IMG/VR virus record: IMGVR_UViG_3300031669_000034
Location: 1 to 58,165 of that record
Source: a virus
Lineage: Duplodnaviria; Caudoviricetes
Length of the DNA: 58,165 nucleotides
Strand: one strand, 5' to 3'
The notes beneath the pieces were generated by a model. It was not told the origin of the DNA, did no database searches, and saw only the letters and a list, made by a program, of their open reading frames with translations. The first letter of the stretch is position 1; every line of letters starts with the position of its first letter. A program made the translations under genes and the position numbers. Positions 12,176 to 50,323 of the stretch are shown piece by piece.

Positions 12176-12183
12176 GATAAGAA

Positions 12184-16945: not shown

Positions 16946-17643
16946 ATAAACTATCTATTGTTGTAGTGGGCCTCGGTGGTGTAGGTTCTATTTTAATAGA
17001 ACGTCTCGGTCGCTTTCTGAATTATGGCGATTATGAAGCAAATATGCTTCTAGTAGACGGTGATGAATACGAGGTCAAAAACTATCAAAGGCAAGAGTTC
17101 AATCAAATGGGGAATAAATCTGACGTGAAAGCAACTGAGCTACAAATAAAATTTCCTAAAATTGTGTTGGACTCGTATGATGCCTATGTAAACGAAACAA
17201 ATACTGCTGAGATCATCAGAGAGGGAGACATAGTTTTTCTCTGTGTTGATAATCACAAAACCAGAAACATCATATCCAATTATTGTATGCAATTAAAAGA
17301 TATTACTTTGATTTCTGGTGGGAATGAGTTGACAGATGGAAATGTGCAAATTTATATCAGACAAGGAGGTGTAGACTTAACACCTGATCTCTGTGCATAC
17401 CATCCTGAAATTGCCAATCCCGAAGATAAGTTACCCGAAGAATTGTCATGTGAAGAAAGAGCCAATGCAGATCCTCAGTTGTATTTCTGTAATCTTGGCG
17501 TAGCTACGTTAATGTGTTGGGCCTTTTACAAATCAATCATAAAAGGTCAGATTGATCAGCAGTCTGAAGTATATTTCGATATTCTTCAAATGTCTGCCAA
17601 TGCACAAACTCGAATTGTAAAAACTAAAGAAGGAGAAAGCTAA
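16942..17643 (+). CDS. ThiF/E1-like adenylyltransferase (PRTRC ThiF-like)
   Basis: VVVGLGGVGS, DGDEYEVKNYQRQ, K, CVDN, LSCEE (candidate catalytic Cys). Confidence 0.88.
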   Translation: MNKLSIVVVGLGGVGSILIERLGRFLNYGDYEANMLLVDGDEYEVKNYQRQEFNQMGNKSDVKATELQIKFPKIVLDSYDAYVNETNTAEIIREGDIVFLCVDNHKTRNIISNYCMQLKDITLISGGNELTDGNVQIYIRQGGVDLTPDLCAYHPEIANPEDKLPEELSCEERANADPQLYFCNLGVATLMCWAFYKSIIKGQIDQQSEVYFDILQMSANAQTRIVKTKEGES

Positions 17644-17645
17644 AA

Positions 17646-18125
17646 ATGGTACGTAGAAAAACTTATACAAGAGATCAATTGGAAGCAATGAATGCTAAAG
17701 ACCTCAAAAGTATGGCATTTCATTCACTAGGACTCAGCGGGCTGAGCAAGAAACCCAAAGATGTTGTTGTAGATGCAGTCATTGCCTATCAAGACGGTGG
17801 TAAAGCATCTATCGCACCAGGAAAGGCAGCATCTTCCGGCCCCATTACCGGACTGAACTTCACTGGTCAAAGCAGCCTAACCAATCCAGGCGCTTCATTC
17901 GGTAACAAAACCACAACCACCATTCAAGTATCATGTGGTGCATCTTCAGGAGCCTTTCCGGTTCAGGGAAAAACTGTTCGTGAAGTCGGTGAGTTTTTGA
18001 GAGAAGTTCTCAATGTGAGTCAACTTTCAACCGGTTTGGTAAATGGAAAAGAAGTCGACTCCGGTTATATTTTGAAATCCGGTGATCGTCTTGAATTCCT
18101 GAAACCAGCAGGGCGTAAGGGATAG
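17646..18125 (+). CDS. Ubiquitin-like protein with N-terminal Rho-N/HeH-like domain
   Basis: C-terminal beta-grasp pattern VNGKEV...YILKSGDRLEFLKPAGRKG*; N-terminal LEAMNAKDLKSMA..LGLSGLSKKPKDVVVDAV. Confidence 0.78.
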   Translation: MVRRKTYTRDQLEAMNAKDLKSMAFHSLGLSGLSKKPKDVVVDAVIAYQDGGKASIAPGKAASSGPITGLNFTGQSSLTNPGASFGNKTTTTIQVSCGASSGAFPVQGKTVREVGEFLREVLNVSQLSTGLVNGKEVDSGYILKSGDRLEFLKPAGRKG

Positions 18126-18138
18126 ACTATGCTTACGA

Positions 18139-18162
18139 TGGGAGCCTCATATGGGGCTCCCA
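18139..18162 (+). terminator. GC-rich hairpin after the Ubl gene (terminator or processing stem)
   Basis: TGGGAGCCTC-ATAT-GGGGCTCCCA inverted repeat; no strong U-tract. Confidence 0.5.
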
Positions 18163-18185
18163 ACTTCAATCTAAGGGGTTTAATA

Positions 18186-18722
18186 ATGAACGAAAATATT
18201 GAAAAATTATTTAATGAAAATGGCATAGATAAAGTTGCGTTTTACTATAAAAGTACTCCCTTAGTTGACAATGCATATACTACTTGCATACTTGTCAATA
18301 CAGAAAAGGGACGGATTGAATCAAGGGGTATCGCCATATGCTCCATGCGAGATACGTTCAACAAAAACAAGGGTAAAAATAAAGCGTTTGGAAGAGCTAT
18401 TGAAGCTGTGGTACGAAAGATTAATTCTGGAAAAATTAACCCTTGTGGGCGTGATTGCGAAGGAGTACGCAGACAATTCAAAATCAAAACCGAACAGGAT
18501 CAAACAAAGTTTGAAAGCGCCATTACTGAGCTTAATACTTTGCATCCTGAATTGGAAGTTGTAATTATTAATGATGGTTCTAAGAACCATACAAAATATT
18601 GTTTGAATATTCCAGCAAGCTATCCAATCCGAGTTGCCAATAAAGACTTTAAATATAAGTCTCAGTTTAGGCCAAACCCAGCCGGAAGTGAAGAATCGAA
18701 ACTATTAGACAAGGGTATATAA
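18186..18722 (+). CDS. Hypothetical phage protein with GxAxCSxxDxFxKxxGxxxAxxRA motif
   Basis: Start re-assigned to ATG 18186, after AAGGGG. Confidence 0.65.
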   Translation: MNENIEKLFNENGIDKVAFYYKSTPLVDNAYTTCILVNTEKGRIESRGIAICSMRDTFNKNKGKNKAFGRAIEAVVRKINSGKINPCGRDCEGVRRQFKIKTEQDQTKFESAITELNTLHPELEVVIINDGSKNHTKYCLNIPASYPIRVANKDFKYKSQFRPNPAGSEESKLLDKGI

Positions 18723-18735
18723 GGCAAGGCAAAAA

Positions 18736-18759
18736 GGGAGGAGAGGTAACTTTCCTCCC
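18736..18759. terminator. Intergenic hairpin with GTAA tetraloop
   Basis: GGGAGGAGAG-GTAA-CTTTCCTCCC preceded by an A-run (a U-tract on the minus strand). Confidence 0.5.
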
Positions 18760-18786
18760 AATAACTCGAAAGGAGACTAGCCAAAC

Positions 18787-19644
18787 GTGGCGTACAGAAG
18801 TATAACTATAATAGGAATAGGAACACTGGGAGGATTTATTGCAGAATCTCTTTCAAATCTGGATGGAGTAGAGGAACTAATTATAGTAGACCACGATATA
18901 GTTGAAAAAAAGAATCTAAGGAATTCTATTTATAGACAGATTGATGTTGATCTATTTAAAGTAGATGCTCTTGGAGATATATTATCTATAAATAGAGATA
19001 TTAATGTTAAACAATTTCCAATAAAATTTGAAGAAGGAACAACAAAACTCCCACACTCAGATTTGGTTTTAGATTGCAGAGATTACACTTATGACAGAGG
19101 ATCATATCTTGATGCACGACTTTATATCTCATCTAGATATCTTATGGTCGATTGTCGAAAGAATGTAAAATATGACAATCCAGTTGAAGGTAAATATCTA
19201 GAAGCTCTAACCAAAGATGATTTACGATACGCTTCAACGATGGTAGCAATGTTACTTCATAGTAATACAATTGCATCATTGATTGATGTAGGATCAGTTC
19301 AAAAATATGAACTTGATTATGTAACAAGGATTGACAGTTGCTCATATGATATTTTATATGATGCATCACCTGGAAATGATAAATTTGTCAACCTGCCTGC
19401 AAAAATTATTCCCATTTTAGATCTTAATAGAGAATATGATCTAAATGTATTTGTTGGAAGTAAGAATCTACCATTAACTGAAAGAATTATTCCTAAAGCA
19501 TCTTTAAAAGATGGAAATGATTTAATAATCAATTTAGCATCTGTTACAAGTTTACAATGCAATTTTAATCAATATCTTGTATCTCCATTTAAGGAAGGTG
19601 GAAAAGTTTATATTGAACTTATTCCTGAAACTGGAGCTGCATAA
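18787..19644 (+). CDS. Second ThiF/E1-like protein, with a C-terminal extension ending IELIPETGAA
   Basis: GTG start after AAGGAG; IIGIGTLGG, DHDIVEKKNLRNS, K, DCRD. Confidence 0.8.
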   Translation: MAYRSITIIGIGTLGGFIAESLSNLDGVEELIIVDHDIVEKKNLRNSIYRQIDVDLFKVDALGDILSINRDINVKQFPIKFEEGTTKLPHSDLVLDCRDYTYDRGSYLDARLYISSRYLMVDCRKNVKYDNPVEGKYLEALTKDDLRYASTMVAMLLHSNTIASLIDVGSVQKYELDYVTRIDSCSYDILYDASPGNDKFVNLPAKIIPILDLNREYDLNVFVGSKNLPLTERIIPKASLKDGNDLIINLASVTSLQCNFNQYLVSPFKEGGKVYIELIPETGAA

Positions 19645-19982
19645 TGAAATTAACCCGCATTGCAGTAAAAAATTTAATTGTCCCAAGACGATTGATTTTT
19701 AGAAATGAATTCTATAAAATATTAGATTACCCAAACAAATATATAATCAAAGGATATACTGTTATCTTACTTGATGATAAAATTGATGAGTTAGAAATTA
19801 GGGACTCACATCCCAATGCAAACCCAAGGACTGGAGAATTTTGTATACCAAACACATTACGAAACTTTCCATTAAACGATGAAACGAAAAACATGATTCA
19901 TAACATCTTAAGTTGCTTTAACTTAGATAATTGCTACTTCACTCCTTGGAACGAAATTCAATATAGAAAACAAGAGGTGTGA
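19644..19982 (+). CDS. Minimal E2/UBC-like protein
   Basis: SHPNANPRTGEFCIP matches the UBC active-site pattern HPN-x-G-x-x-C; coupled to ThiF-2. Confidence 0.55.
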   Translation: MKLTRIAVKNLIVPRRLIFRNEFYKILDYPNKYIIKGYTVILLDDKIDELEIRDSHPNANPRTGEFCIPNTLRNFPLNDETKNMIHNILSCFNLDNCYFTPWNEIQYRKQEV

Positions 19983-20215
19983 ACATGCTTAAAGAAAAAA
20001 AACCATTATTATCTAGAAAAAAATTGGACAAAGCTCTTGGTGAATCAATTGATGAGCTCAGCGATGCAACCAAGAAAAGTTCAAGAAAGGTCTTTGATGC
20101 TTTGATAGAAGAAGGGGTACAGACCATAAGTCATATTTTTGATAAATATAAGATAATAGCAAAACAAAAGGTGATCAGACATGGCCAAGAAAAAGACGAT
20201 AGGGATAGTGAGTGA
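19979..20215 (+). CDS. Hypothetical small helical protein
   Basis: GTG start after GAGGT; overlaps neighbours. Confidence 0.55.
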   Translation: MNMLKEKKPLLSRKKLDKALGESIDELSDATKKSSRKVFDALIEEGVQTISHIFDKYKIIAKQKVIRHGQEKDDRDSE

Positions 20216-20426
20216 AATGCACTCAGGGATTCTTGAACAAGAAATTATTCGAATTGTTGAAAAAGTAACACGTGATAATCTACTCGGATTAGCGGCAGAC
20301 GATGTTAAAATCATCGCTAAAGAACTTATGCCCGATTTTGATAGAATGATTTCTAAAAAAATCAAGGATCACTTATATGAGATAGGGGAGTTCCTTATGG
20401 AACGATTTAATACGGAAGACGACTAG
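20181..20426 (+). CDS. Hypothetical small protein directly upstream of RNAP beta'
   Basis: 81-aa ORF; AAGGTGA upstream. Confidence 0.6.
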   Translation: MAKKKTIGIVSEMHSGILEQEIIRIVEKVTRDNLLGLAADDVKIIAKELMPDFDRMISKKIKDHLYEIGEFLMERFNTEDD

Positions 20427-20437
20427 GGGGAGAAATA

Positions 20438-23155
20438 ATGCCAAAAATTCTTAACTATGCTAAATTTTGTGAAAATTTAGAGGAAGTAACCTCTCTAAAA
20501 ACATTTGGGAAAAAGAAGTTTCATTCTAATGGTTTATTCTCCGAGCAAATCTTCGGACCAGTCAGAAACTATACATGCCAATGCGGTACGTATCATGGAG
20601 TTTCAAAATCTGGAGGTACTTGCAAAGAATGTGATGTTGATATTGTTAATAGCGATGAAAGACGAAAAAGATTTGCAAAAATAGTTTTGCCAACACCAGT
20701 TGTTAATCCACTATTCTATGATTTATTAGTTGATATTGCCGGAAGAACTCTAAAAAGTGCGCTTGATGATTTAATGAAAATGGATAAGAGCGTTCTATAT
20801 ATTCAAGATGGTGAATTTGTAGTTACAGTAAACCCCGAAACAATCCCAGCTGGATTACAACAATGGGAACGTATAGAAGCTATCAGAGTTCTTGTCGAAA
20901 CATTAGCTACTGATATGGTTGCTGAGGGAATTCCGGAATGGAAAATTGTTTTAGATAATATTGATAATCTTATTATTGATACAATAATTGTATTACCTCC
21001 AGACTTAAGACCGACGTCTAAAAGTTCAGGCGAAGGAAAACAGTTGATGGACAAAATTAATCGTTATTATGTCCAGATACTAACTAAGAAAGAGATAATG
21101 AAAGATACGATTATTGATATTCGAAGAGATAAAAGTTTGTATTACACATACTTCAAACAATTACAAAAAGATGTCAGCGAATTATATACACGAATATTGG
21201 AAAAGATGGCAAAGAAAGAGGGATTGATTAGAGGAAATATTCTTGGTAAAAGAATTGATTTTTCGGGTCGAGCTGTGATAACTCCAGACCCAACTTTAAA
21301 TCTTGATGAATGTAAATTGCCCTATTTAATGATTCTTGAAATTTTCAAATTGCCTATTGCCAAAAAGATTATGTCTTTGGGTAAATTCAAGATTTTAAAT
21401 AGAGCGATTGATTATGTCGACCTGTGTATTGATAGTCAATCCCCAGCTCTTTTCAAAGTTTGTGAAGGGCTTATTCAAAATGAAGTTTGTATTCTAAACA
21501 GACAACCATCGTTACATAAACTCGGAATGCTTGGTTTCAATATTAAGATAACTCTTGATCAAGTTATTAAAATACACCCGTTGGTGTGTCCTCCATTCAA
21601 TGCAGATTTTGATGGAGATCAAATGGCAGTATATATTCCAATTACAGATGAGGCCAAACAGGAAATTCGGGACAAGATTTTTATCACTAAAAATTTAAGT
21701 AGTCCTGCAAATGAAAGTTTGACAACAACGCCAAGTCAAGATGTCATTTTGGGAATATACTATTTAACTTCCATTGAACTTACGACATATTCAGAAATGA
21801 TAGAATACAAAGGACAAAAAATTACATGGGGACAAGCTGAATTTAATAAATGTCTGCCAGAGGATTATCCAATAATTGATACACCAGTCAACAACGATAA
21901 ATTATTGGATATATTAAATCATATTAAAGATCACTATCCGGAAATGGTTACAGTTCAAGTTTTAGATGCAATCAAAAGGATTGGATTCAAATATGCTACT
22001 CTCTTTGGTTGTACTATGTCACTAAAAGATTGTACGATGGAAGGTGCCAGAGAATTTAGGGATCAGTTGTTTTCAGATGATGATATACACAAACAATTAG
22101 TAGCAGTTTCAGACCCCGCTGTAACACAAAAGATGCGAGAGAACTTCAAATATTCATATATGATTGAATCAGGTGCAAGAGGAAGCTGGGATCAAGTTCG
22201 ACAGCTAGTTTTGACCAGAGGATTTATCTCAAACTTTCAAGGAAAAATTCTTCCAGAACCAATCAAGAATTCATTGATGGATGGGTTGACTAATAAAGAA
22301 TTTTTCTATTCAACATACGGGTGTCGAAAAGGTTTGCTTGATGTTGCTTTGAATACCGGCACAAGCGGATATCTGTCAAGAAAACTAATATTTACTTGTG
22401 CAAATCTTCAAATTGATCCAATACTTGAAGATTGCGGGACGAAAGATCTTTTAACAGTTGAAGTTAAAAATAAACTGAAAGCTCGAATGTTAATTAACAG
22501 ATATATGCTTGAGAATAAAACATTAGTTAGAATAACCAGAGAAAATTATAAAGATAATATTGGAAAGATAATTCAAATTAGAAGTCCAATATTGTGTCAA
22601 AGTCCAAGAATCTGTCATACTTGCTATGGAGATCTATATAAACGATTGAATAGCAGATTCATTGGAATCATAGCAGCTCAAACTCTTGGTGAAAGAGGAA
22701 CCCAATTAGTATTAAGAACATTTCATACTTCTGGTTCAGCGGTCATTAAGGGAGAAGGAGAAGAAAGCGGGGATGTGGATCAATCAATGCTTCAAGAAGA
22801 CATTATTGGAGATCTCGCTTCTGTGTCTGAACTATTGCATAAGTTCAAAGGAAAAAGTTATGATGGTATAGTTTCAGAATTATTTGATGCCTATGGTAAA
22901 GATATTTATCATGTTCATTATGAATGTGTGGTTGCTCAGCTTATGTGGAGTAACTATCGAAAATGGAGACTATTAGAAAATAGGGTACTAGTCGAACCGG
23001 ATTACTTTTCAATCCAATCTGTGCCCAATCAGGAAAGCTGGATATTAGCGATGGCCTTCTCAAATCCAAAAAGATCAATTTTACAGGGCATACTATATGA
23101 AGGAAGATATTCAGGAGTCATGGATAAAATTCTAAAGGGGGAACGAATCACATGA
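20438..23155 (+). CDS. rpoC: Phage multisubunit RNA polymerase beta' subunit
   Basis: GLFSEQIFGP, Zn finger CQC..CKEC, VLPPDLRP, GKRIDFSGRAVI, LNRQPSLH, catalytic NADFDGDQM, bridge helix TSGYLSRKL, trigger loop TQLVLRTFH. Confidence 0.96.
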   Translation: MPKILNYAKFCENLEEVTSLKTFGKKKFHSNGLFSEQIFGPVRNYTCQCGTYHGVSKSGGTCKECDVDIVNSDERRKRFAKIVLPTPVVNPLFYDLLVDIAGRTLKSALDDLMKMDKSVLYIQDGEFVVTVNPETIPAGLQQWERIEAIRVLVETLATDMVAEGIPEWKIVLDNIDNLIIDTIIVLPPDLRPTSKSSGEGKQLMDKINRYYVQILTKKEIMKDTIIDIRRDKSLYYTYFKQLQKDVSELYTRILEKMAKKEGLIRGNILGKRIDFSGRAVITPDPTLNLDECKLPYLMILEIFKLPIAKKIMSLGKFKILNRAIDYVDLCIDSQSPALFKVCEGLIQNEVCILNRQPSLHKLGMLGFNIKITLDQVIKIHPLVCPPFNADFDGDQMAVYIPITDEAKQEIRDKIFITKNLSSPANESLTTTPSQDVILGIYYLTSIELTTYSEMIEYKGQKITWGQAEFNKCLPEDYPIIDTPVNNDKLLDILNHIKDHYPEMVTVQVLDAIKRIGFKYATLFGCTMSLKDCTMEGAREFRDQLFSDDDIHKQLVAVSDPAVTQKMRENFKYSYMIESGARGSWDQVRQLVLTRGFISNFQGKILPEPIKNSLMDGLTNKEFFYSTYGCRKGLLDVALNTGTSGYLSRKLIFTCANLQIDPILEDCGTKDLLTVEVKNKLKARMLINRYMLENKTLVRITRENYKDNIGKIIQIRSPILCQSPRICHTCYGDLYKRLNSRFIGIIAAQTLGERGTQLVLRTFHTSGSAVIKGEGEESGDVDQSMLQEDIIGDLASVSELLHKFKGKSYDGIVSELFDAYGKDIYHVHYECVVAQLMWSNYRKWRLLENRVLVEPDYFSIQSVPNQESWILAMAFSNPKRSILQGILYEGRYSGVMDKILKGERIT

Positions 23156-23370
23156 GAGATCCCAAAAGAATACCAGAAATATTAGATGAACTAAAGGGGA
23201 TTTGGGGAGCAGTTCCTGATCTACGCTTTGGTCAATTGATAATAAATGTAATAGGCACACAAATATTATCAAAAGAAAATGACCAACAATTTTATTATAT
23301 GGAGGATGAAGAACTAATAAAACTTTTTAGAAAATATCTTTCGGAGGTTAAATATATTGAACATCATTAA
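23152..23370 (+). CDS. Small conserved phage protein (MRDPxRI...W...PDLRFGQL; YihD/DUF1040-like)
   Basis: Recognisable motif; lies between the two RNAP genes. Confidence 0.65.
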   Translation: MRDPKRIPEILDELKGIWGAVPDLRFGQLIINVIGTQILSKENDQQFYYMEDEELIKLFRKYLSEVKYIEHH

Positions 23371-26359
23371 TCCAACATTTAAAATCCAAGATTTGGATAA
23401 AAATGTCTTTACAATAAGACAAAAGGATTACGATCAGATTTTACCGTTGGTTCAGAAAATAGTTAAACCAGTTGAGGAGATTGGCTTCGAAATAAATGAA
23501 ATTGATCTCAAGGATTCAAGGTTTGCTTCCGGAGAATTATCATCAACTCTAAAGCAAACTTTAGTTATCAAAATGCAAAAGGGTACTGCAAATATTGATA
23601 TCTCAATATTCATTCCAAAACTGGTAGAAAATAATTATATTTACATCAACGGAAGGAAAAAGATTCCTCTATTTCAGTTATTTGATATTCCCATTGTTAC
23701 AAGAGGCGAAAACATCAAACTCAGAACAAATGTAGCAACCATTGTTGTCACATTAGAAAAAGAAGGTCCAAGAGTTCAGATTAGTTTTCTTGGGAAAAAA
23801 GTTCCTCTTTCTTTAATGTTTCTTGCATATTATGGCATTGAAAGAGTATACGAGATGTTCAGCCTCACTGAAAAGATTGACCCTTCGGACGGTCATTTGT
23901 ATGAGATACTCAGATTTGATCTTAAGGATTATTGTGAGGAATCCAAGGGATACACACAAGATGATTTTGTTTTAGAAGTTGGAAGAATTTATTCTCGCTT
24001 CAATCAAAAATCAAAAGGTGAAGATATAATGTACGCCCTTGATCTTATTCCCAAGGTCGATATTATTACAGCAAAGTTTTTAACAACCGACTCAATTTTA
24101 GAAGAATTAGTTGAAGCTATCAAAATTGGGGACATCGACGATACACTATTTACTAATAAACGGGTTAGATGTTTCGAGTATATGGTTACATCTAAAGTCT
24201 CAAAAATCATATTTGATTTATGCTTCTCAAACAGAACATCTCGGCAACCAAAATTTAATATCAACTCCACTCAAATATTATCAGAGTGTAATGTATCAGA
24301 TATTGTTCAGTTTGATTTCTCTATTAATCCAATTGAAGAACTAACCAAGTTATCCCGAATAAGTCTTTTAGGACCTGGAGGATTTAAAAGAGAAAATATT
24401 CCACAGCATTTGAGAGACATATGTCCAACTATGTACGGTCGAGTGTGTCCGGTTGATACTCCGGATAGAGACAATTGCGGAGTCTTACAAAATTTAATTC
24501 CAAATGTTTTATTGGACGATAATCTGAAATTTAGCGATGAATTTTTAGAGAATCAACCAATTTCAATGCCAGTTTCAATGACTCCATTCTTGAAACATGA
24601 TGATCAAACAAGACTTCAAATGGCGGCATCACAAATGCGCCAATCAATTATGTTAAAAGAGTTTGATACTCCATTGATCAGTTCTGGTTGTGAAGGTCTT
24701 TATTCAGACTATACACAATTTGTCAAGCGAGCCAAAAAAGATGGTGAAGTTCTGCATATTGATCGTAACTATATCATAGTAATCTATAATGATAAAGATG
24801 CAGATGTGTTTGACATTAGTTATAGAAAGATTTATGTTGAACATCTTGACTTTATGAACATCTATATAAAACCAGGAGATAAATTCAAAGCGGGTGACAT
24901 TCTTGCCGAAAGTAACTTTTGTAAAGATGGAAAAATTAATATAGGCAAGAATCTATTAACTGGGGTAATGGTGTATTATGGAAACAACTATGAGGATGGT
25001 ATTGTCATATCTGATAGATTGGTTGAAGATGATTCCCTAACTTCAGTGCATTATAAAGAATTATCATTTTCACTGACACCTGAAAAAGTATTGTTATCTC
25101 TTAGTGAGGATAAATACAAACCATTGCCTGATGATTTAGAAGTAATTCAGGCAGGAAATCCATACGCAATTTTGAAAAAATTAAATTCTGATGATTTTTA
25201 TTCAGTATTCTCAGAACCCATTGAGTTGATTGCTAGGAAAAACTTCATTATTTCAGAAGTAAATCTCTATGCAAATTCATGGAATGAAGAAGTTCCGGAG
25301 TATAAGAAATGGATTGAAACGAAACTTCAAGAACAATCTGAAAAAGAAAATTATCTTCAAAAAATGATGAAAGTACATTTACCAAAAGATCACGCTATCA
25401 AATTTATTAGAGAACGAGGACTTGATAAATTTTCGTTCGTCGGAAAATATAAAAATAAAAGAGAAAAAATTAATGGTATTCAAGTCGAAATGATTGGAGT
25501 TCATACAAGAAAAATAAAAGTCGGGGATAAGATCGCAAACAGGCATGGTAATAAGGGAGTTATTTCAAGAATAGTCCCTCATGATAAAATGCCCCAGTTA
25601 CCAAATGGGCAACACCTGGATATTTGTATTAATCCTCTAGGTATTATTTCTCGAATGAACTTTGGTCAATTATATGAATTACATCTAGCATTTTCAGTTA
25701 GTCATCTAAAACGAAAAATGATTGAGATGATTGACGCAGAAGTTCCAGATAAAGAGATTACAGATTTTCTATTTGGATATATAGAAATTATTGACAAAAC
25801 AAATGGAAAATGGTATTCAGAACAAATCAAAGAACAGTTACCAAAGAAAATTACAAAGGAATTTGTTGAAAATTTTACTATCATTCAACCTCCTTTTGAA
25901 TCATGCAGAATTGAAGAAGTTGAAAAGGCAATGGAATACACAGGAACCAATTTTACCGAAGTTCTTTATGATCCATTATCTCAAGTTAATTTACATAATG
26001 AAATTGCAGTTGGTTATATTTACTTTTTCAGAATGGTTCATATTGCTGAAGAAAAATTAGCTGCAAGAGGAATTGGAGCATATGCCAGGAGAACACTTCA
26101 ACCGCTCGGCGGAAGAAAGAATAAAGGTGGTCAGAGATGTGGAGAAATGGAAACCGCCTGTTTGATTGGTCATGATGCACCATGCAACTTATTTGAATTT
26201 CTTACAACTAAATCAGACTGCATTGATCTAAAAAATAGTTACATCCGTGGTTTTATTGAATCCAAACTTGTTGACGAAACTAAGGAATTAAATCCAATGC
26301 CGGAATCGGTAAAACTCCTTAATTCTTACTTAACAGTTATAGGAGTTGATCACAAATGA
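23357..26359 (+). CDS. rpoB: Phage multisubunit RNA polymerase beta subunit
   Basis: TTG start after GGAGG; LGPGG, GRVCPVDTPD, HDDQTRLQM..QMRQ, NYEDGIVIS, GDKIANRHGNKGVIS, NPLGIISRMN, GGQRCGEME. Confidence 0.96.
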   Translation: MNIINPTFKIQDLDKNVFTIRQKDYDQILPLVQKIVKPVEEIGFEINEIDLKDSRFASGELSSTLKQTLVIKMQKGTANIDISIFIPKLVENNYIYINGRKKIPLFQLFDIPIVTRGENIKLRTNVATIVVTLEKEGPRVQISFLGKKVPLSLMFLAYYGIERVYEMFSLTEKIDPSDGHLYEILRFDLKDYCEESKGYTQDDFVLEVGRIYSRFNQKSKGEDIMYALDLIPKVDIITAKFLTTDSILEELVEAIKIGDIDDTLFTNKRVRCFEYMVTSKVSKIIFDLCFSNRTSRQPKFNINSTQILSECNVSDIVQFDFSINPIEELTKLSRISLLGPGGFKRENIPQHLRDICPTMYGRVCPVDTPDRDNCGVLQNLIPNVLLDDNLKFSDEFLENQPISMPVSMTPFLKHDDQTRLQMAASQMRQSIMLKEFDTPLISSGCEGLYSDYTQFVKRAKKDGEVLHIDRNYIIVIYNDKDADVFDISYRKIYVEHLDFMNIYIKPGDKFKAGDILAESNFCKDGKINIGKNLLTGVMVYYGNNYEDGIVISDRLVEDDSLTSVHYKELSFSLTPEKVLLSLSEDKYKPLPDDLEVIQAGNPYAILKKLNSDDFYSVFSEPIELIARKNFIISEVNLYANSWNEEVPEYKKWIETKLQEQSEKENYLQKMMKVHLPKDHAIKFIRERGLDKFSFVGKYKNKREKINGIQVEMIGVHTRKIKVGDKIANRHGNKGVISRIVPHDKMPQLPNGQHLDICINPLGIISRMNFGQLYELHLAFSVSHLKRKMIEMIDAEVPDKEITDFLFGYIEIIDKTNGKWYSEQIKEQLPKKITKEFVENFTIIQPPFESCRIEEVEKAMEYTGTNFTEVLYDPLSQVNLHNEIAVGYIYFFRMVHIAEEKLAARGIGAYARRTLQPLGGRKNKGGQRCGEMETACLIGHDAPCNLFEFLTTKSDCIDLKNSYIRGFIESKLVDETKELNPMPESVKLLNSYLTVIGVDHK

Positions 26360-26556
26360 GTATTTTTGACACACCCATGTGGAGTCCGGGAACATCAACA
26401 GTTTCAACATCTTCAATATTTCCATATAATTGGGAAAATGAACATGAAATTAAACCCAAGAGAAAGATAGTTAGAAAGAAAAAAGTTGAAGAGGAAGAAA
26501 TAAAACAAATGCCGTCAGATCTAATTTTATTTGATCCGAAGGATTTGATACTATGA
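26356..26556 (+). CDS. Hypothetical small protein
   Basis: 66-aa ORF with ATGA-type overlap to the beta gene and AGGAG upstream. Confidence 0.55.
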   Translation: MSIFDTPMWSPGTSTVSTSSIFPYNWENEHEIKPKRKIVRKKKVEEEEIKQMPSDLILFDPKDLIL

Positions 26557-26598
26557 GTAATTATAATAAAAAAATAGAAAACTTATGGGGGAAAATAA

Positions 26599-27483
26599 AT
26601 GACAGAATGTTTACCAGATATTCAATGCTCAATACCGGATATTAAAATCCCCATTATGCAAGTAGGTGTTGAAAATATTGAAGTCCCTTTCAAATTGGAA
26701 TCTAAGTATGGCGGGTATCATCAGATGATTGCAAACGTATCTCTGAGAACCAACTTGGATAAAGATACGAAAGGGATTTCAATGTCAAGATTGCTTCTAA
26801 CTTTGAAGCCATATCTTGACTTACCATTAAAGCATACATTGATCAAACAAATACTTGAAGATGTACGAAAAAATGTTGAGAGCGATGCTGCATTTATGAA
26901 GTTTGAATTTCGAATGCCGATAATACGAAAGTCTATAAAATCGGATAATGAGTTTCCTATCTACTATAAATGCAAATTTGAAGGACAGCTATTTAAATCT
27001 CCCGTATTCGTTGAACAGGGAGTATTTACAATTACAGATCATTTCAGATTCTATCAAGGCGTTATAATCCAATATGCTTCATACTGCCCTTGTTCAGCAG
27101 AGTTGTGTGGCCATTTAAATGAAAATGAGTCAAAGGGATATCCACACAATCAAAGATCGTATGCTGACATTCTTATAGAAGTTATTGACCCTCATTATTT
27201 ATGGTTAGAGGATATTATCGACGCTGTTGAAGAACAGTTGATAACTATTCCATATCCAATAATCAAAAGACTAGATGAACAAGAGATAGCAAAGGTAGCT
27301 GCTGAAAATCCGATGTTTGTTGAAGATTCGATCAGAAAAATATCACAATGTTTGAATGATCGTGAAGATGTTTTTGATTGGATTGTTAAGTGTTCTCATG
27401 AAGAATCAATACATACATCTGAAGCAATTGCAGTTAATTGGAAAGGTCGCCCGGGTGGATTTAATGGGAGAAGATATCTATGA
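26599..27483 (+). CDS. folE2: GTP cyclohydrolase IB (FolE2)
   Basis: LPDIQ, KGISMSRL, YCPCS, HNQRS, KRLDE, NPMFVED, EESIH. Confidence 0.92.
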   Translation: MTECLPDIQCSIPDIKIPIMQVGVENIEVPFKLESKYGGYHQMIANVSLRTNLDKDTKGISMSRLLLTLKPYLDLPLKHTLIKQILEDVRKNVESDAAFMKFEFRMPIIRKSIKSDNEFPIYYKCKFEGQLFKSPVFVEQGVFTITDHFRFYQGVIIQYASYCPCSAELCGHLNENESKGYPHNQRSYADILIEVIDPHYLWLEDIIDAVEEQLITIPYPIIKRLDEQEIAKVAAENPMFVEDSIRKISQCLNDREDVFDWIVKCSHEESIHTSEAIAVNWKGRPGGFNGRRYL

Positions 27484-28190
27484 TTAATGTATGCATTTCA
27501 TATGGTTTTGGGGAAGGCAATAGATTTCAACAAGAAACTATTCCAGATAAAATTCAATTAGCAATATACAAGTACGATATTTTTATGGAGCTTAAAGATG
27601 ATGCTGTTAAAGCTCTTAAAAAACATGGTACTGATGTTAAAGTAGTTCACCTTCCAGAGGATACTTTAAGACAAAGTTTAGACAATATAGATAAACTGAT
27701 AGAGATTTGTATTTATGAAATAGGATGTCGAAGGTTTGTTATACATCCAAACAAAAATATCTTTCAGTTTATTGACCACTTTATAGAAAGATGGGGGTAT
27801 TCCGATATGGCAAAACTTTTAGTTGAAACCTTTGGTTGGAGAACTAAAAAACAGCTAAGAGGACCATTGGATATTTTGCAAGTTTGTATTGAAAATCCAG
27901 AATTAGCAATGGTTATTGATACAAGTCATATCGAAACATTGTGGTTTGATCATAGGATTATGCCTACGTTATTGAAATATACCCCAGTAATTCATTTATC
28001 AAATAGAGCAAAAGGGTTCGGTTCACATATGCCGTTTAATTCAGCAAATGGTGAACTGAAACTGGTGGGATTTGTCAGAGATCTAAAACATAGATATAAT
28101 TGGAATGGAGATTTAGTTCTGGAATATATGTCTGAATATAAGGAGAAGCTTATGAAAAATAAACTGTACATAGAGAGGTTATTGGCATGA
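27480..28190 (+). CDS. Xylose-isomerase/AP-endonuclease-2-like TIM-barrel protein
   Basis: VHLP, VIHP, LVET, IDTSH, IHLSN, HMP, VLEY metal-ligand pattern. Confidence 0.7.
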   Translation: MINVCISYGFGEGNRFQQETIPDKIQLAIYKYDIFMELKDDAVKALKKHGTDVKVVHLPEDTLRQSLDNIDKLIEICIYEIGCRRFVIHPNKNIFQFIDHFIERWGYSDMAKLLVETFGWRTKKQLRGPLDILQVCIENPELAMVIDTSHIETLWFDHRIMPTLLKYTPVIHLSNRAKGFGSHMPFNSANGELKLVGFVRDLKHRYNWNGDLVLEYMSEYKEKLMKNKLYIERLLA

Positions 28191-28546
28191 ACAGAGGCCA
28201 TACAATTGCTCTTTACGAGAAAGAGAGACAATATGAAGAAGAGGTTTTTGGAAACTATTCACAGATCAAAAGTTTAAGTTTCCCCAGTTTTCTTGCTTTT
28301 TTAAGAGTATATATTGATAAAGCAGAGAAGGCATATGCCGGAAAATGGGAAAAAGAGTTACCACCGTGGTTGAAAACCTGCGCTGAATTTGAAACTGAAG
28401 CAAAGGGAACCGCACCAGTAAAGGCGTACGAAGAGGTTATCAAAATCATGGCTCTTGCAGGAGCTGCATTAGAAACTTACACAATTATTGACGCCAGTAA
28501 ATGGAGAGAAAATCCGAACACGGATGCAGAAAAGTGGAAAGATTAA
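28187..28546 (+). CDS. Hypothetical protein, possibly an all-alpha NTP pyrophosphatase (MazG-like)
   Basis: ERQY...FG and EEVIKIMALAGAALE resemble phage MazG-like helices; weak. Confidence 0.4.
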   Translation: MNRGHTIALYEKERQYEEEVFGNYSQIKSLSFPSFLAFLRVYIDKAEKAYAGKWEKELPPWLKTCAEFETEAKGTAPVKAYEEVIKIMALAGAALETYTIIDASKWRENPNTDAEKWKD

Positions 28547-28571
28547 AAACTAAAAGGAGAGATGAAAAACA

Positions 28572-29315
28572 ATGAATGAAAACCTATCCGAAATGGTAAA
28601 AGATGCAACAACCGAACCAAACCCAGCTATATTCTCTGAGGCCGATCTCGATTTGCCAACTGATGATATTCAAGAGGTAGCAACTGTTGAGGCAAGCCCA
28701 GCGATTCCCATTACATCGTTATCAAGCTGGTTTGAGGAAAATGCTTCACGGTTTAGTAACATCAACCAGGTTAAAGTTGCAATTCGTGGTGTTGATGCAG
28801 CTAAGACATTAATCATGGCAGTAGCAGATGATTCAGAAGAAGCTGATGGTGAAGGTAACGAGAAAAGAAATCTGCGGGTATATGAGAATGCTGATACCCA
28901 TCCAGTTCTTGATCTTACTCCGGAAACCATGGATGTTTATAGCAACGGTTTCAGAATTCTGTATAATTATGGAGAAGGCGTATCTATCAAATGTTATGGA
29001 ATTCGAACCGGTCTCATTGCTGTATTCTGTAATGTAATTGAAGGAAGCATGATTCCATATGCAATTACACGAGTTAAAAGAAAAGACGATGAGATTGAAG
29101 TTGTATCAAGAGATGCCGCAGAAGTGTCAGCAAAACTAGCTGCCGCAGTTGATGGAGAATCTTTACAACTGAGATATAAACAATCAGCGAAAGCTGTTGC
29201 TGATTTCACAACGAATAAAAGTGCTATTGACTGGTTATTGGCTCGACAAGTTGAGATTACAGATATTAATCATCATCTTCAGATCGACAACATTATCATC
29301 GACACTTTAGCGTAA
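28572..29315 (+). CDS. Acidic hypothetical protein
   Basis: 247-aa ORF; AAGGAG upstream. Confidence 0.7.
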   Translation: MNENLSEMVKDATTEPNPAIFSEADLDLPTDDIQEVATVEASPAIPITSLSSWFEENASRFSNINQVKVAIRGVDAAKTLIMAVADDSEEADGEGNEKRNLRVYENADTHPVLDLTPETMDVYSNGFRILYNYGEGVSIKCYGIRTGLIAVFCNVIEGSMIPYAITRVKRKDDEIEVVSRDAAEVSAKLAAAVDGESLQLRYKQSAKAVADFTTNKSAIDWLLARQVEITDINHHLQIDNIIIDTLA

Positions 29316-29329
29316 GGTAATAAAGGACT

Positions 29330-29471
29330 TGGGCGGGTAACATGCGGAGAAGAAATCAAAACACCAGAGCCGATACCAGTTGGTGCGACCGACTCTCATT
29401 TATGAGATGGAGCTTAAACCTCACTGGCCAATTCGGACTAAAATATAAATTTTCTCTCCCGGTCCCGCCCA
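29330..29471. ncRNA. Candidate structured RNA: long rod with central A-rich bubble (6S-like)
   Basis: Nested complementary segments TGGGCGGG/CCCGCCCA, GGAGAAGAAAT/ATTTTCTCTCC, CCGA/TCGG, CCAGT/ACTGG, TCTCAT/ATGAGA; GC-richer than its surroundings. Confidence 0.45.
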
Positions 29472-29481
29472 TTTCACTTAT

Positions 29482-30210
29482 ATGAAACTAAATGAAAATG
29501 TAAAACTAGTCCTAAAAGACGTTTATCTATATGACATTGAAGCGTGTCATTATACTATAATGGAGAAGCTTGGGTTGGATGTGAGCACATTAGATAGAAA
29601 TGATAAGTCTCAAAGAAATATTGAAATTGGAAAAATGATGAGAAAGAATCCTCAACTAACTTCTCTATTACGAAATACAACCAAAACAATTATTGACGAA
29701 TATTTAATGAAAAATAATGTCACTGAAGATGACATTTTGATCAGACAATACGATGGTATTTTAACGACCAAAATTCTTAGAGTTACAAACATCCAACATA
29801 TTCCATTTGAAATGAGAAAAAGATATTTAACTTTTATCATATCAATTGATAGAGGAAAATATATTGCTCAGCAAGCAATGGACGGCGGAATAACAATAAA
29901 AGGTATACCATTTCGTTATCCTCAAATGGATTTGATCTATAGAAAAATATGTGGAATTAATTTTGCAAATAAGAGTCGAATATTTATCCAGCTACAAAAA
30001 ATAAAAGACGATTTTTTAAATTCTAACAACCCATACTTATTTGGAGTCCCGACTAAAAAAGGATTCAATGTTTATTTGAAAGGGTATGGTGAACTTGAAG
30101 TAACTGAGAGCACAGTCAAGTTAATGGATACGGATGATATTGACAAAGAAAGATACTTCAAGTTTTATATCGAACCGTTTACAAAAAGCATAACAGTAGA
30201 GTTTGTATAA
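29482..30210 (+). CDS. Short DNA polymerase palm-like protein (divergent family B-like)
   Basis: YLYDIEACHYTI (motif A-like) and IRQYDGIL (motif C-like), IKG, C-terminal DIDKERYF. Confidence 0.5.
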   Translation: MKLNENVKLVLKDVYLYDIEACHYTIMEKLGLDVSTLDRNDKSQRNIEIGKMMRKNPQLTSLLRNTTKTIIDEYLMKNNVTEDDILIRQYDGILTTKILRVTNIQHIPFEMRKRYLTFIISIDRGKYIAQQAMDGGITIKGIPFRYPQMDLIYRKICGINFANKSRIFIQLQKIKDDFLNSNNPYLFGVPTKKGFNVYLKGYGELEVTESTVKLMDTDDIDKERYFKFYIEPFTKSITVEFV

Positions 30211-30218
30211 GGAGAAAT

Positions 30219-30809: not shown

Positions 30810-30812
30810 AAA

Positions 30813-31727: not shown

Positions 31728-31774
31728 TTTGCGTCTGTAAATGCCAACGATCGTGATCGATCCATGACGCAAGA

Positions 31775-31814
31775 GAGTGGGGGAGTTCTGGCTGTCTTCC
31801 CCACTCATTTTTTT
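31775..31814 (+). terminator. Rho-independent terminator ending the replication/transcription block
   Basis: GAGTGGGGGAG...CTTCCCCACTC followed by ATTTTTTT. Confidence 0.8.
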
Positions 31815-31828
31815 GCGCAAAAAAAATG

Positions 31829-31842
31829 GAACAAACTATAAA
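31829..31842 (+). promoter_or_regulatory. Candidate late promoter motif GAACAAACTATAAA
   Basis: Matches the GAACAAAATATAAA motif seen upstream of other morphogenesis units. Confidence 0.5.
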
Positions 31843-31861
31843 AAAAGAGGATATCAATCTA

Positions 31862-50281: not shown

Positions 50282-50295
50282 TTTATATTTTGTTC
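50282..50295 (-). promoter_or_regulatory. Candidate late promoter motif GAACAAAATATAAA
   Basis: About 20 nt upstream of the first gene of the minus-strand tail operon; identical to 55470..55483. Confidence 0.6.
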
Positions 50296-50323
50296 TTAGA
50301 AAGTACAAGTAAAAGATCTTAAA

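What the first reader, a model, noticed from the sequence alone, without database searches (positions are those of the whole stretch)
20438..26359. Compact, unsplit beta'/beta RNA polymerase in a phage with T4-like structural genes
Seen: 905-aa beta' and 1000-aa beta, each a single ORF with all catalytic motifs, in beta'-then-beta order with a small gene between; no alpha, omega or sigma is recognisable. Known: bacterial subunits are longer and ordered rpoB-rpoC, phiKZ/AR9 enzymes are split into more polypeptides, and a deep-branching group of tailed phages with two-gene multisubunit RNAPs has been described from metagenomes. Inference: this phage belongs to or parallels that group. The small flanking ORFs (19979, 20181, 23152, 26356) are candidate accessory subunits.
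Basis: partly seen in the sequence, partly recalled or inferred. Interest (0 to 1): 0.7.

Follow-up and report, generated by a model that had tools for sequence, protein, structure and literature searches.

The report
Compact two-gene phage RNA polymerase
This stretch of an uncultured T4-like giant phage encodes the two catalytic subunits of its own unusually small, cell-type RNA polymerase, a member of a deep-branching phage group already described from metagenomes whose complete genomes turn out to carry a second such polymerase.

Summary
ORF 20438-23155 is a 905-aa beta' and ORF 23357-26359 (TTG start) is a 1000-aa beta. Both are unsplit with intact catalytic motifs, in beta'-then-beta order.

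The pair is not a recent bacterial capture. No genome of 185,579 prokaryote species gave a match above 33% identity. In every finished tree the sampled Bacteria stay on one side of a branch.

The family is large and uncultured. 297 IMG/VR stretches encode relatives, and all 80 fetched loci have the same gene order. It fits the published mReC group (Weinheimer and Aylward 2020), but I could not check that paper's contig list.

- 18 of 21 longer related records, including a complete 277-kb genome syntenic with the window, carry a second, paralogous unsplit beta'-beta set. In the complete genome it begins about 8 kb beyond the window's left end.
- Compactness comes from many deletions. Several are shared by both sets and absent from all sampled bacteria.
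- No alpha, omega or sigma family was found.
- Of the four small ORFs, only the 81-aa one directly upstream of beta' is positionally conserved (68 of 76 loci). The gene between the subunits is optional.

Verdict: a new member of a known kind.

The parts
20438..23155 (+). beta' subunit gene (905 aa), unsplit
   Evidence: Pfam finds Rpb1 domains. The best PDB sequence matches are bacterial beta' (E 4.6e-101). The AF2 model has pLDDT 79.2, and all 50 listed Foldseek PDB matches are bacterial beta' (TMq 0.67-0.76).
21599..21619 (+). Codons of the NADFDGD catalytic-Mg motif (beta' residues 388-394)
   Evidence: sequence. In one search, A389-D394 are invariant and N388 is at least 90% conserved across 73 sequences. 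One search aligns the motif to Salmonella rpoC 458-464.
20576..20632 (+). Codons of the N-terminal four-Cys zinc site of beta' (C47, C49, C62, C65)
   Evidence: In one search all four Cys are invariant in 73 sequences. In one search they align to the bacterial C-x-C...C-x2-C segment. The segment is absent from the set-2 paralogues.
23357..26359 (+). beta subunit gene (1000 aa, TTG start), unsplit
   Evidence: Pfam finds Rpb2 domains 3, 6 and 7. The best PDB sequence matches are bacterial beta (E 3.8e-84). The AF2 model has pLDDT 81.3 and Foldseek TMq 0.56-0.69 to bacterial beta over about the full length. GGAGG lies 9 nt before the TTG.
25523..25558 (+). Codons of the GDKIANRHGNKG motif of beta (residues 723-734)
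   Evidence: sequence. In one search, ten of the twelve residues are invariant in 73 sequences. One search aligns the motif to Salmonella rpoB 1063-1074.
20181..20426 (+). 81-aa conserved small ORF directly upstream of beta'. Candidate accessory factor; function unknown.
   Evidence: In one search the profile finds it directly upstream of beta' in 68 of 76 loci that have a flank. One search shows a helical-looking family with an invariant His64. One search gives 218 representative clusters at E<=0.001, and all 150 listed are 54-108 aa stand-alone proteins. It has no Pfam or PHROG match.
23152..23370 (+). 72-aa optional small ORF between beta' and beta
   Evidence: Searches find a homologue in 35 of 80 loci. 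In one search, 30 of 80 loci leave under 100 nt between the two genes, and 17 of those overlap. One search points to widespread small phage or bacterial protein clusters, one carrying DUF1040 on 16% of members (a lead only).
19979..20215 (+). 78-aa small ORF, patchily conserved
   Evidence: profile hits in 37 of 80 loci. No family match.
26356..26556 (+). 66-aa small ORF downstream of beta, poorly conserved
   Evidence: 0 of 80 loci by blastp; 16 of 80 loci by profile. No family match.

Best explanation
The two ORFs encode the catalytic core (beta' and beta) of a phage-made, cellular-type multisubunit RNA polymerase. The phage is an uncultured T4-like jumbo myophage, and the enzyme belongs to the deep-branching mReC-type lineage.

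**Shown here.**
- Both subunits are complete, with the active-site, zinc, bridge-helix and trigger-loop elements of a working enzyme.
- The beta'-then-beta order and the sizes (882-915 aa and 996-1067 aa) hold across a large uncultured family.
- The lineage lies outside sampled Bacteria.
- Related genomes hold a second paralogous unsplit set (beta'2 about 1000 aa, beta2 about 1360 aa). In trees it is the sister of the window's set, and it shares several of the window set's deletions.

**Inferred.**
- The enzyme assembles without alpha and omega and initiates without a sigma-70-type factor, as reported for the split phiKZ/AR9 enzymes. It would transcribe phage genes independently of the host polymerase.
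- The two sets divide the infection programme between them (early versus late, or virion versus non-virion). Which set does which is unknown.
- The conserved 81-aa protein encoded directly upstream of beta' may be an assembly or specificity factor. This is the weakest step.
For: **Identity and intactness.**

**Family size and fixed architecture.**
- 297 of 318 pattern-matched IMG/VR stretches encode a relative. All 80 of 80 kept loci have beta then beta' in the same order.
- The best 120 listed protein clusters share 69-100% identity and come from JGI, ENA, Logan and NCBI MAGs.

**Genuine phage context, not a chimera.**
- 41 of 58 window ORFs hit the complete, terminally repeated 277-kb record G001. 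Nearly all hits run in collinear order from about 104 kb down to 27 kb.
- GC is even across the window.

**Not a recent capture.**
- The best 80 loci from 185,579 species genomes are 27-33% identical and spread over many phyla.
- No isolate in the phage collection exceeds about 31% identity over its aligned part.

**Trees.**

| Subunit, model | Size | Bacteria on one side | Set 1 | Set 2 | Set 1 + set 2 sisters |
|---|---|---|---|---|---|
| beta', LG+G4 | 56 rows, 891 columns | 100 (32 rows) | 100 | 100 | 97 |
| beta, LG+G4 | 47 rows, 866 columns | 99 | 100 | 100 | 95 |
| beta', site-heterogeneous | 26 rows, 773 columns | 99 | 100 | 100 | 96 |

Values are SH-aLRT support. The leave-one-group-out runs keep Bacteria together at 100.

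**Shared deletions.**
- beta' segments at E. coli positions 154-174, 308-324 and 1151-1227, and beta segments 577-618 and 633-654, are empty in 16 of 16 set-1 rows and more than half empty in all 4 set-2 rows.
- The same segments are filled in 32 of 32 (beta') or 25 of 25 (beta) bacterial rows.

**Second set.** Found in 5 of 5 long records and 13 of 16 further records.

**No alpha, omega or sigma-70 region 2.**
- 0 of 5 records matched PF01000 or PF01192. 0 of 5 were over the cut-off for PF04542.
- The control genomes ring in 14, 14 and 10 of 14.
- None was found among the 58 window ORFs.

**Precedent.** Alpha-less, sigma-less phage enzymes in two sets are described in passages of PMC7598289.

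**mReC criteria and names.** Sections 5 and 10 and passages of PMC7481178.
Against: - No biochemical or expression proof exists. RNA-library contigs lie on the genes at 99% identity or more, but at low, even depth, and DNA carry-over cannot be excluded.
- No archaeal or eukaryotic sequences were in my trees. 'Outside Bacteria' is shown only in unrooted trees, and placement relative to the other domains rests on the paper.
- treekit flags the set1-set2 sister grouping as a meeting of long branches. When one set is removed, the other attaches in the same region next to other long phage branches, with support of only 78 and 93.
- Absence of alpha, omega and sigma is absence of Pfam/PHROG matches. 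Divergent analogues could be missed.
- The window does not contain the second set, and it is unknown whether this phage has it.
- The deletion map rests on MAFFT alignments at about 28% identity. The domain names attached to the positions are recalled, not computed.
- Membership in the paper's contig list was not verified.
Confidence: 0.8

Rival explanations
1. Recent capture of host rpoB/rpoC: the genes are bacterial polymerase genes lately acquired, or a mis-assembled or mis-binned bacterial fragment.
For: The best PDB and genome matches are bacterial beta' and beta. The bacterial-type zinc sites are kept.
Against: - Identity to any of the best 80 loci from 185,579 species genomes is only 27-33%, with no favoured phylum.
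- Gene order is beta' then beta in 80 of 80 loci, the reverse of the rpoB-rpoC order seen in the Salmonella control locus.
- Bacteria form one side of a branch at 99-100 in all finished trees.
- Segments present in all sampled bacteria are missing.
- The window is syntenic with a complete phage genome.
- GC is even across the window.
Confidence: 0.02
2. Hybrid enzyme: the phage beta'/beta replace the host's large subunits but still use host alpha2, omega and a host or phage sigma. The polymerase is then host-dependent, not autonomous.
For: - The enzyme is of bacterial type: zinc-binding domain, second zinc site, and a conserved beta C-terminal region aligned to E. coli 1049-1338.
- No phage alpha or sigma was found, so something must assemble and direct the enzyme.
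Against: - The 18 residues aligned to E. coli beta 890-907 are missing in 16 of 16 set-1 rows. I recall this as the flap tip that docks sigma region 4.
- The beta' C-terminal tail (1358-1407) is missing.
- phiKZ/AR9 enzymes work without alpha (passages of PMC7598289).
- The family spans 55-100% identity in many habitats. That would demand compatibility with many hosts' alpha subunits.
Confidence: 0.1
3. The enzyme's main role is not mRNA synthesis but another RNA-making task, for example priming of phage DNA replication. Alternatively it is a relic with reduced function beside the second set.
For: - The genes sit in a co-directional block with replication and recombination genes: topoisomerase II, helicase, SbcCD.
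- Iyer et al. raise RNAP priming for phiKZ-like phages (passage of PMC7824862).
- Several peripheral elements are lost.
Against: - Purifying conservation is strong: mean column identity is 67% (beta') and 62% (beta) over 73 sequences, with all catalytic residues invariant.
- Set 1 is present in every related locus examined (80 of 80).
- A relic would not be kept in hundreds of lineages.
Confidence: 0.06

Closest known systems
mReC, multimeric-RNAP-encoding Caudovirales (Weinheimer and Aylward 2020, PMC7481178)
   Same: - Uncultured tailed-phage contigs carry full-length beta and beta' (at least 800 aa, with NADxDGD).
- TerL is of PF03237 type and, in relatives, the capsid protein is Gp23-type.
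- The placement is deep-branching, outside cellular clades.
- Relatives L054 and L055 bear the metagenome number that the paper prints for its mReC1 and mReC3.
   Different: - In what I read (sections 5 and 10, and term searches), the paper's main text does not mention gene order, subunit compaction, missing alpha/omega/sigma, a second paralogous set per genome, or conserved small neighbours.
- Its contig list is in supplements I could not open.
phiKZ/AR9-type jumbo-phage RNAPs (virion and non-virion sets; review PMC7598289)
   Same: - A phage-encoded cellular-type enzyme with no recognisable alpha, omega or initiation factor.
- Two sets per genome in relatives.
- Predicted independence from host RNAP.
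   Different: - In those enzymes beta and beta' are each split into two or more polypeptides. Here both are single chains.
- In some relatives only beta'2 is split.
- Virion and replication genes here are T4-like, not phiKZ-like.
- Sequence similarity to AR9, PBS1 and phiR1-37 subunits is partial, at 24-25% identity.
- A gp68-like fifth subunit was not looked for.
RNAP genes of cultured Yersinia phage GN1 (YerA41-like) and Cobetia phage Carin-5
   Same: Unsplit beta' followed directly by unsplit beta, with a compact beta (925-927 aa) and a small ORF directly upstream of beta'.
   Different: - Only about 26-27% identical to the window's proteins.
- They form a separate very long branch in the trees.
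- beta' is longer, 1083-1092 aa.
- The upstream ORF is about 200 aa and unrelated to the 81-aa family: hhalign probability is 0.6% for Carin-5.
- Carin-5's 'sigma factor' label has no Pfam support.
Bacterial RNAP core (alpha2-beta-beta'-omega)
   Same: - The overall fold of both large subunits is bacterial: Foldseek TMq 0.56-0.76.
- The catalytic motifs, zinc sites, bridge helix and trigger loop are kept.
   Different: - About 340 (beta) and 500 (beta') residues shorter than the Salmonella/E. coli subunits.
- About 260 and 470 residues shorter than the medians of the sampled bacteria.
- Gene order is reversed.
- No alpha or omega was found.
- Segments universal in the sampled bacteria are deleted.
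- Two positions that I recall as classic rifampicin-resistance sites (E. coli beta 516 and 526) carry F and K instead of D and H.

Membership tests
Multisubunit RNAP largest subunit (beta'/Rpb1) | Double-psi beta-barrel with the NADFDGD metal-binding motif | tested here: met
   PF00623 scores 115.5 bits against a cut-off of 25.3. The motif lies at residues 388-394. A389-D394 are invariant and N388 is at least 90% conserved in 73 sequences.
Multisubunit RNAP largest subunit (beta'/Rpb1) | Bridge helix, trigger loop and clamp zinc sites | tested here: met
   The window aligns to Salmonella rpoC 769-805, 920-952, 1125-1150 and to both four-Cys sites. Segment names are recalled. Rpb1 domains 1 and 4 fall just below their Pfam cut-offs.
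Multisubunit RNAP second-largest subunit (beta/Rpb2) | Rpb2 domains 3, 6 and 7 with the GDK..RHGNKG motif | tested here: met
   PF00562 scores 185.7 bits, PF04565 53 bits and PF04560 42.5 bits, all over their cut-offs. The motif lies at residues 723-734.
Multisubunit RNAP second-largest subunit (beta/Rpb2) | N-terminal lobe/protrusion domains | tested here: inconclusive
   Residues 1-312 have no Pfam or PDB sequence match. The AF2 model is confident there (pLDDT mostly 81-96), and whole-chain Foldseek alignments to bacterial beta span about 1165-1378 columns. No residue-level structural map was available.
mReC (Weinheimer and Aylward 2020) | One viral contig encodes both beta and beta', each at least 800 aa, with NADxDGD in beta' | tested here: met
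   The subunits are 905 and 1000 aa on one window, with the motif present. The criterion is read in the paper's methods passage.
mReC (Weinheimer and Aylward 2020) | The RNAP clusters apart from cellular homologues | tested here: inconclusive
   The pair lies apart from 14-32 bacterial rows at 99-100 support. No archaeal, eukaryotic or NCLDV sequences could be obtained, so the three-domain placement was not tested here.
mReC (Weinheimer and Aylward 2020) | Caudovirales hallmark genes; TerL of PF03237 type; capsid of PF07068 (Gp23) type | tested here: met
   TerL 33768-35429 hits PF03237 at 22.4 bits against a cut-off of 22 and phrog_2 at 2e-37. Sheath and baseplate genes are present. Gp23 is not in the window but is found in 4 of 5 long relatives, including the complete genome.
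mReC (Weinheimer and Aylward 2020) | Identity with, or placement among, the 97 published contigs | not testable with these tools
   The contig list and trees are in supplements, which are closed. The only link is that L054 and L055 (60% identical beta') carry the metagenome number printed for mReC1 and mReC3.
phiKZ/AR9-type jumbo-phage RNAP | beta and beta' each split into two or more polypeptides | tested here: not met
   The window and all full-length copies in the 80 loci have single ORFs of 905 and 1000 aa. The feature is read in passages of PMC7598289.
phiKZ/AR9-type jumbo-phage RNAP | No alpha or omega; two sets per genome | tested here: inconclusive
   No alpha or omega family was found in 5 related records or in the window. 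Two sets occur in 18 of 21 related records. The window itself holds one set only.
Bacterial rpoBC (recent capture) | rpoB-then-rpoC order, high identity to a bacterial clade, nested in Bacteria | tested here: not met
   The order is reversed in 80 of 80 loci. Identity is at most 33%. Bacteria lie on one side of a branch.

The most novel reading that the evidence does not exclude
This T4-like jumbo-phage clade runs a phiKZ-style two-polymerase programme. It does so with two unsplit, alpha-less beta'-beta enzymes that arose from one ancient duplication inside the phage lineage. The window's set-1 enzyme has 1,905 residues in two chains. By alignment it lacks the flap tip, the rudder segment, the jaw and the lineage-specific inserts. 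It would then be the smallest self-sufficient cellular-type RNA polymerase known, and would use the conserved 81-aa upstream protein in place of sigma, alpha or omega for promoter choice or assembly.
Probability: 0.2. Interest if true: 0.75.

Novelty: new member of a known kind. Interest (0 to 1): 0.5.

Why it matters
- **A minimal core.** If the two chains alone form an active core, this is a natural minimal version of the cellular-type RNA polymerase. It would be a simpler object than the four-to-five-piece phiKZ/AR9 enzymes for asking how a multisubunit RNAP assembles without alpha and starts without sigma.
- **A testable link to phiKZ-like phages.** The second paralogous set in related complete genomes raises a testable question: did this T4-like lineage evolve a two-polymerase infection programme independently of phiKZ-like phages?
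- **Non-tree evidence on origin.** The deletions shared by both sets bear on the duplication-versus-double-acquisition question, which the phiKZ literature leaves open (PMC7598289).
- **No cultured member.** The phage collection holds no isolate of this family, so all of this remains prediction.

Tried and rejected
- **Complex prediction.** beta' (alignment A2) with the 81-aa protein (A1) gave ipSAE 0.00 in two runs, with verdict 'no answer'. It says nothing either way.
- **Sigma lead for the 81-aa protein.** The Atlas's own low-confidence model (pLDDT 0.59) aligned at TM 0.55 to a viral cluster in which 10% of members carry Sigma70_r2. hhalign of A1 against the Carin-5 'sigma factor' ORF gave probability 0.6%, and that ORF has no sigma Pfam hit. 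I dropped the lead.
- **Unfinished trees.** Site-heterogeneous (PMSF) trees on 56 rows and 1261 columns did not finish in two 300-s runs. I replaced them with LG+G4 trees and a reduced PMSF tree.
- **Promoters and terminators.** The sigma-70-type scan of 16000-30000 gave 74 sites against 57.5 +/- 7.2 in shuffles, and 11 terminator-like sites against 7.6 +/- 2.7. This is not informative in AT-rich DNA.
- **A 16-nt motif.** It has two exact copies upstream of tail-gene units. With up to 3 mismatches there are 10 matches against 5.8 expected, and 8 of 100 shuffles did as well. I make no promoter claim.
- **tRNAs.** None in the window.
- **RNA runs.** Six RNA libraries hold 5-20% of the sampled words. 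In four that I laid, short contigs (151-613 nt, depth 2-20) cover scattered parts of 12001-32000, including both polymerase genes. Depth is low and even, so this cannot separate transcription from DNA carry-over. Uncovered parts mean nothing.
- **Literature.** Search terms are those. Passages were read in PMC12619734, PMC7824862, PMC13282480, PMC9123017 and PMC10159854.
  - None states that mReC-type phages carry two full-length sets.
  - PMC10159854 notes a second, non-homologous beta gene in one distantly mReC-like virus (legend passage only).
  - Supplements of PMC7481178 may bear on this and were not seen. The '.a' suffix in a printed contig name hints that its authors saw more than one set.
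- **No whole genome.** None is held for the window.
- **Outgroups.** I found no route to archaeal or eukaryotic reference sequences with the tools open to me.


Full report
**1. Observation**

The window holds an ATG-started ORF at 20438-23155 (905 aa) and a TTG-started ORF at 23357-26359 (1000 aa), both on the + strand.

Pfam results:
- The first ORF matches Rpb1 domains 2, 5 and 3 above their cut-offs. Domains 1 and 4 fall just below.
- The second ORF matches Rpb2 domains 6, 3 and 7 above their cut-offs.

PHROGs place both in RNAP families and in two unnamed full-length families, phrog_25354 and phrog_24349.

The catalytic and structural motifs are present and conserved in 73-sequence alignments:
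- beta' carries NADFDGDQM, both four-Cys zinc sites, and the bridge-helix and trigger-loop segments.
- beta carries GPGG and GDKIANRHGNKG.

Shine-Dalgarno-like motifs precede both starts, and the N-termini match the family consensus. A 72-aa ORF (23152-23370) overlaps both genes.

**2. Context**

The window is phage DNA.
- It encodes topoisomerase II, a helicase, SbcCD, radical-SAM enzymes, a T4-type TerL, gp6- and gp25-like baseplate wedge proteins, a hub protein and a tail sheath.
- GC is even at 0.31-0.39, and there is no tRNA.
- No whole genome is held for the window.
- 41 of 58 window ORFs hit G001, a 277-kb IMG/VR record with direct terminal repeats rated 100% complete. Nearly all hits run in collinear order from about 104 kb down to 27 kb.

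This argues against a chimeric contig.

**3. The family**

- A scan of IMG/VR found 297 stretches encoding relatives. The 80 kept loci are 55-83% identical in beta'.
- All 80 also encode beta downstream on the same strand. Full-length beta' is 882-915 aa and beta is 996-1067 aa. Some loci are near-duplicates, so the 80 are not all independent.
- The protein database lists 120 best clusters at 69-100% identity from JGI, ENA, Logan and NCBI MAGs, on contigs up to 309 kb.
- Near-identical DNA (at least 0.91 of sampled words) occurs in 14 runs of 11 studies labelled soil, sediment, marine sediment or aquatic metagenome. Nine of these runs are flagged as possible sources.
- No record of the phage collection comes close. 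The best matches are about 25-31% identical over their aligned parts, and several of them are bacterial contigs filed as phage.

**4. Not a recent capture**

- In one genome for each of 185,579 prokaryote species, the 80 best loci are 27-33% identical. They are spread over Acidobacteriota, Bacillota, Actinomycetota, Pseudomonadota, candidate phyla and others.
- In the beta' tree (56 rows, 891 columns, LG+G4), 32 bacterial rows from 17 named phyla form one side of a branch (SH-aLRT 100). The window's clade ('set 1', 16 rows) has support 100 on a stem of 1.48.
- The beta tree agrees, with Bacteria at 99.
- Removing set 2, set 1 or the isolates leaves Bacteria together at 100.
- A reduced tree under the site-heterogeneous model gives Bacteria 99 (26 rows, 773 columns).

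I had no archaeal or eukaryotic sequences. The three-domain placement therefore rests on the paper.

**5. Relation to mReC**

Weinheimer and Aylward (PMC7481178; I read sections 5 and 10 and searched passages) define mReC as follows:
- 97 contigs with beta and beta' of at least 800 aa and NADxDGD;
- clustering apart from cells;
- Gp23-type capsids (PF07068) and PF03237-type TerL.

How the window compares:
- It meets the size, motif and TerL criteria.
- Gp23 is found in 4 of 5 long relatives.
- The names the paper prints for mReC1 and mReC3 carry the metagenome number that also appears in the tool's contig names for L054 and L055.

I file the finding as a member of this group. The caveat is that the contig list is in closed supplements.

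**6. A second polymerase in relatives**

- Pfam searches of five long related records found two beta'-like and two beta-like genes in each.
- The second set has beta'2 of about 1000 aa followed by beta2 of about 1360 aa. It lies 35-40 kb from the first and again runs beta' then beta.
- In G001 it begins about 8 kb beyond the position matching the window's left end. The window itself contains no second set.
- A further search found set-2 beta' in 13 of 16 records. The three without it are 50-65-kb fragments.
- Altogether, 18 of 21 records hold both sets.
- Set 2 is 28-32% identical to the window's beta', about as far as bacterial beta'.
- Even so, set 2 is the sister of set 1 in all trees: 97, 95 and 96. 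treekit warns that long branches meet there.

Independent of the trees, several segments are filled in all sampled bacteria but are empty in all 16 set-1 rows and more than half empty in all 4 set-2 rows:
- beta' 154-174, 308-324 and 1151-1227 (E. coli numbering);
- beta 577-618 and 633-654.

I read this as one duplication inside the phage lineage, at moderate confidence.

In some relatives beta'2 is split, near residue 775-782 or near 370. The main text of the mReC paper, as far as I searched it, does not mention two sets.

**7. Why the enzyme is compact**

I aligned the window against a Salmonella rpoC/rpoB ruler, which uses E. coli numbering. Domain names are recalled, not computed, and the alignments are at about 28% identity.

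beta' lacks:

| E. coli positions | Recalled name |
|---|---|
| 154-174 and 201-223 | none recalled |
| 308-324 | rudder region |
| 535-565 | none recalled |
| 651-666 | none recalled |
| 705-723 | none recalled |
| 953-1124 | SI3 insert |
| 1151-1227 | jaw |
| 1272-1300 | none recalled |
| 1358-1407 | C-terminal tail |

beta lacks:

| E. coli positions | Recalled name |
|---|---|
| 234-341 | SI1 |
| 577-618 | none recalled |
| 633-654 | none recalled |
| 890-907 | flap tip; retained in set 2 |
| 994-1031 | part of SI2 |

Other points:
- AF2 models are confident: beta has pLDDT 81.3 and pTM 0.79, and beta' has 79.2 and 0.73.
- Their best PDB matches are all bacterial subunits, with TMq 0.56-0.69 for beta and 0.67-0.76 for beta'.
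- At E. coli beta positions 516 and 526 the window has F and K where bacteria have D and H. From recall, changes at these positions confer rifampicin resistance in bacteria. The phage enzyme is therefore predicted to be rifampicin-insensitive.

**8. Other subunits**

- Sigma70_r2, the alpha insert domain PF01000 and omega PF01192 gave 0 of 5 related records over cut-off. The control genomes rang in 10, 14 and 14 of 14.
- None of the 58 window ORFs matched such families.
- The review PMC7598289 (passages) reports the same absences for phiKZ/AR9 enzymes, which are active without alpha.

**9. The small ORFs**

| ORF | Size | Conservation | Other evidence |
|---|---|---|---|
| 20181-20426 | 81 aa | Directly upstream of beta' in 68 of 76 loci with a flank; absent from G001 | 218 representative clusters among 1.84 billion proteins; all 150 listed are 54-108 aa; invariant His64 |
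| 23152-23370 | 72 aa | Homologue in 35 of 80 loci; 30 of 80 loci leave under 100 nt between the genes and 17 of those overlap; others hold different inserts up to 343 aa | Nearest Atlas clusters are widespread small phage or bacterial proteins |
| 19979-20215 | 78 aa | 37 of 80 loci | No family match |
| 26356-26556 | 66 aa | 16 of 80 loci | No family match |

The function of the 81-aa ORF is unknown. I keep it as a candidate factor at low confidence. I do not regard the 72-aa ORF as a core subunit.

**10. Verdict**

- The finding is a new member of the known mReC kind, not a new kind.
  - the fixed beta'-beta operon structure;
  - the deletion map;
  - the paralogous second set in related genomes, with shared deletions;
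  - the one positionally conserved small partner gene.
- All functional statements remain predictions. There is no isolate, and the only expression hint is low-depth RNA-library contigs that cannot exclude DNA carry-over.

Noticed in passing
G001 record: L200 9878-17317 (- strand); also L203-L206: Related long records carry a second unsplit RNAP set: beta'2 of about 1000 aa, then beta2 of about 1360 aa. In G001 a 117-aa cupin gene sits between the two. A roughly 155-aa ORF with a weak receiver-domain match lies upstream in three records. A roughly 185-206-aa ORF of no known family lies downstream in all five.
   Followed up: yes
G004 (L205 8948-13765), G010 and G013-G016: In some relatives beta'2 is broken into two ORFs, of about 780 aa and about 235 aa. 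In G010 the break is near residue 370, with other ORFs in between. I did not determine whether these are true splits, introns, inteins or homing elements.
   Followed up: no
window 19644-19982 (+), with 18787-19644 and 12568-18125: - The 112-aa ORF just upstream of the polymerase block has, by eye, an HPN-x9-C motif like the catalytic motif of E2 ubiquitin-conjugating enzymes (recalled).
- It follows a second ThiF-like gene (PF00899, 4.6e-13).
- It is found in 74 of 80 loci by profile.
Pfam there: Prok-E2_D 0.004, Prok-JAB 1.5e-4, ThiF 3e-22.
   Followed up: partly
window 50282-50297 and 55470-55485 (- strand): Two exact copies of a 16-nt AT-rich motif lie just upstream of tail-gene units. Counts that allow mismatches are not above chance.
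   Followed up: partly
L053 12687-13718, L068 2823-3848, L065 4793-5575, L050 12690-13109, L063 12205-12624: Some relatives have larger ORFs (139-343 aa) inserted between beta' and beta, where the window has its 72-aa ORF. They are not identified. The site behaves as an insertion hot spot.
   Followed up: no
protein P0059: A beta' 72% identical to the window's sits on a 21.8-kb contig of an NCBI MAG labelled Candidatus Heimdallarchaeaceae. This is more likely a binning artefact than a host clue. I did not examine it.
   Followed up: no
L202 8288-15113 (Cobetia phage Carin-5); L208 6265-12991 (Yersinia phage GN1): These cultured phages have a roughly 200-aa ORF, then unsplit beta' (1083-1092 aa), then beta (925-927 aa). 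The Carin-5 ORF is annotated as a sigma factor but has no sigma Pfam match at E<=0.1.
   Followed up: partly
window 26599-27483, 3663-4118, 10780-11829, 27480-28190: FolE2-type GTP cyclohydrolase (1.1e-59), a PTPS/QueD-like enzyme (2.1e-34), a radical-SAM enzyme with a weak QueE-like PHROG match, and a xylose-isomerase-like TIM-barrel protein flank the polymerase genes. This suggests a 7-deazaguanine or pterin pathway. FolE2 follows beta in 74 of 80 loci.
   Followed up: no
window 12001-32000: Short contigs from four metatranscriptome libraries match this region at 99% identity or more in three of them, including inside both polymerase genes. Depth is low and even, so transcription is not shown.
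   Followed up: partly
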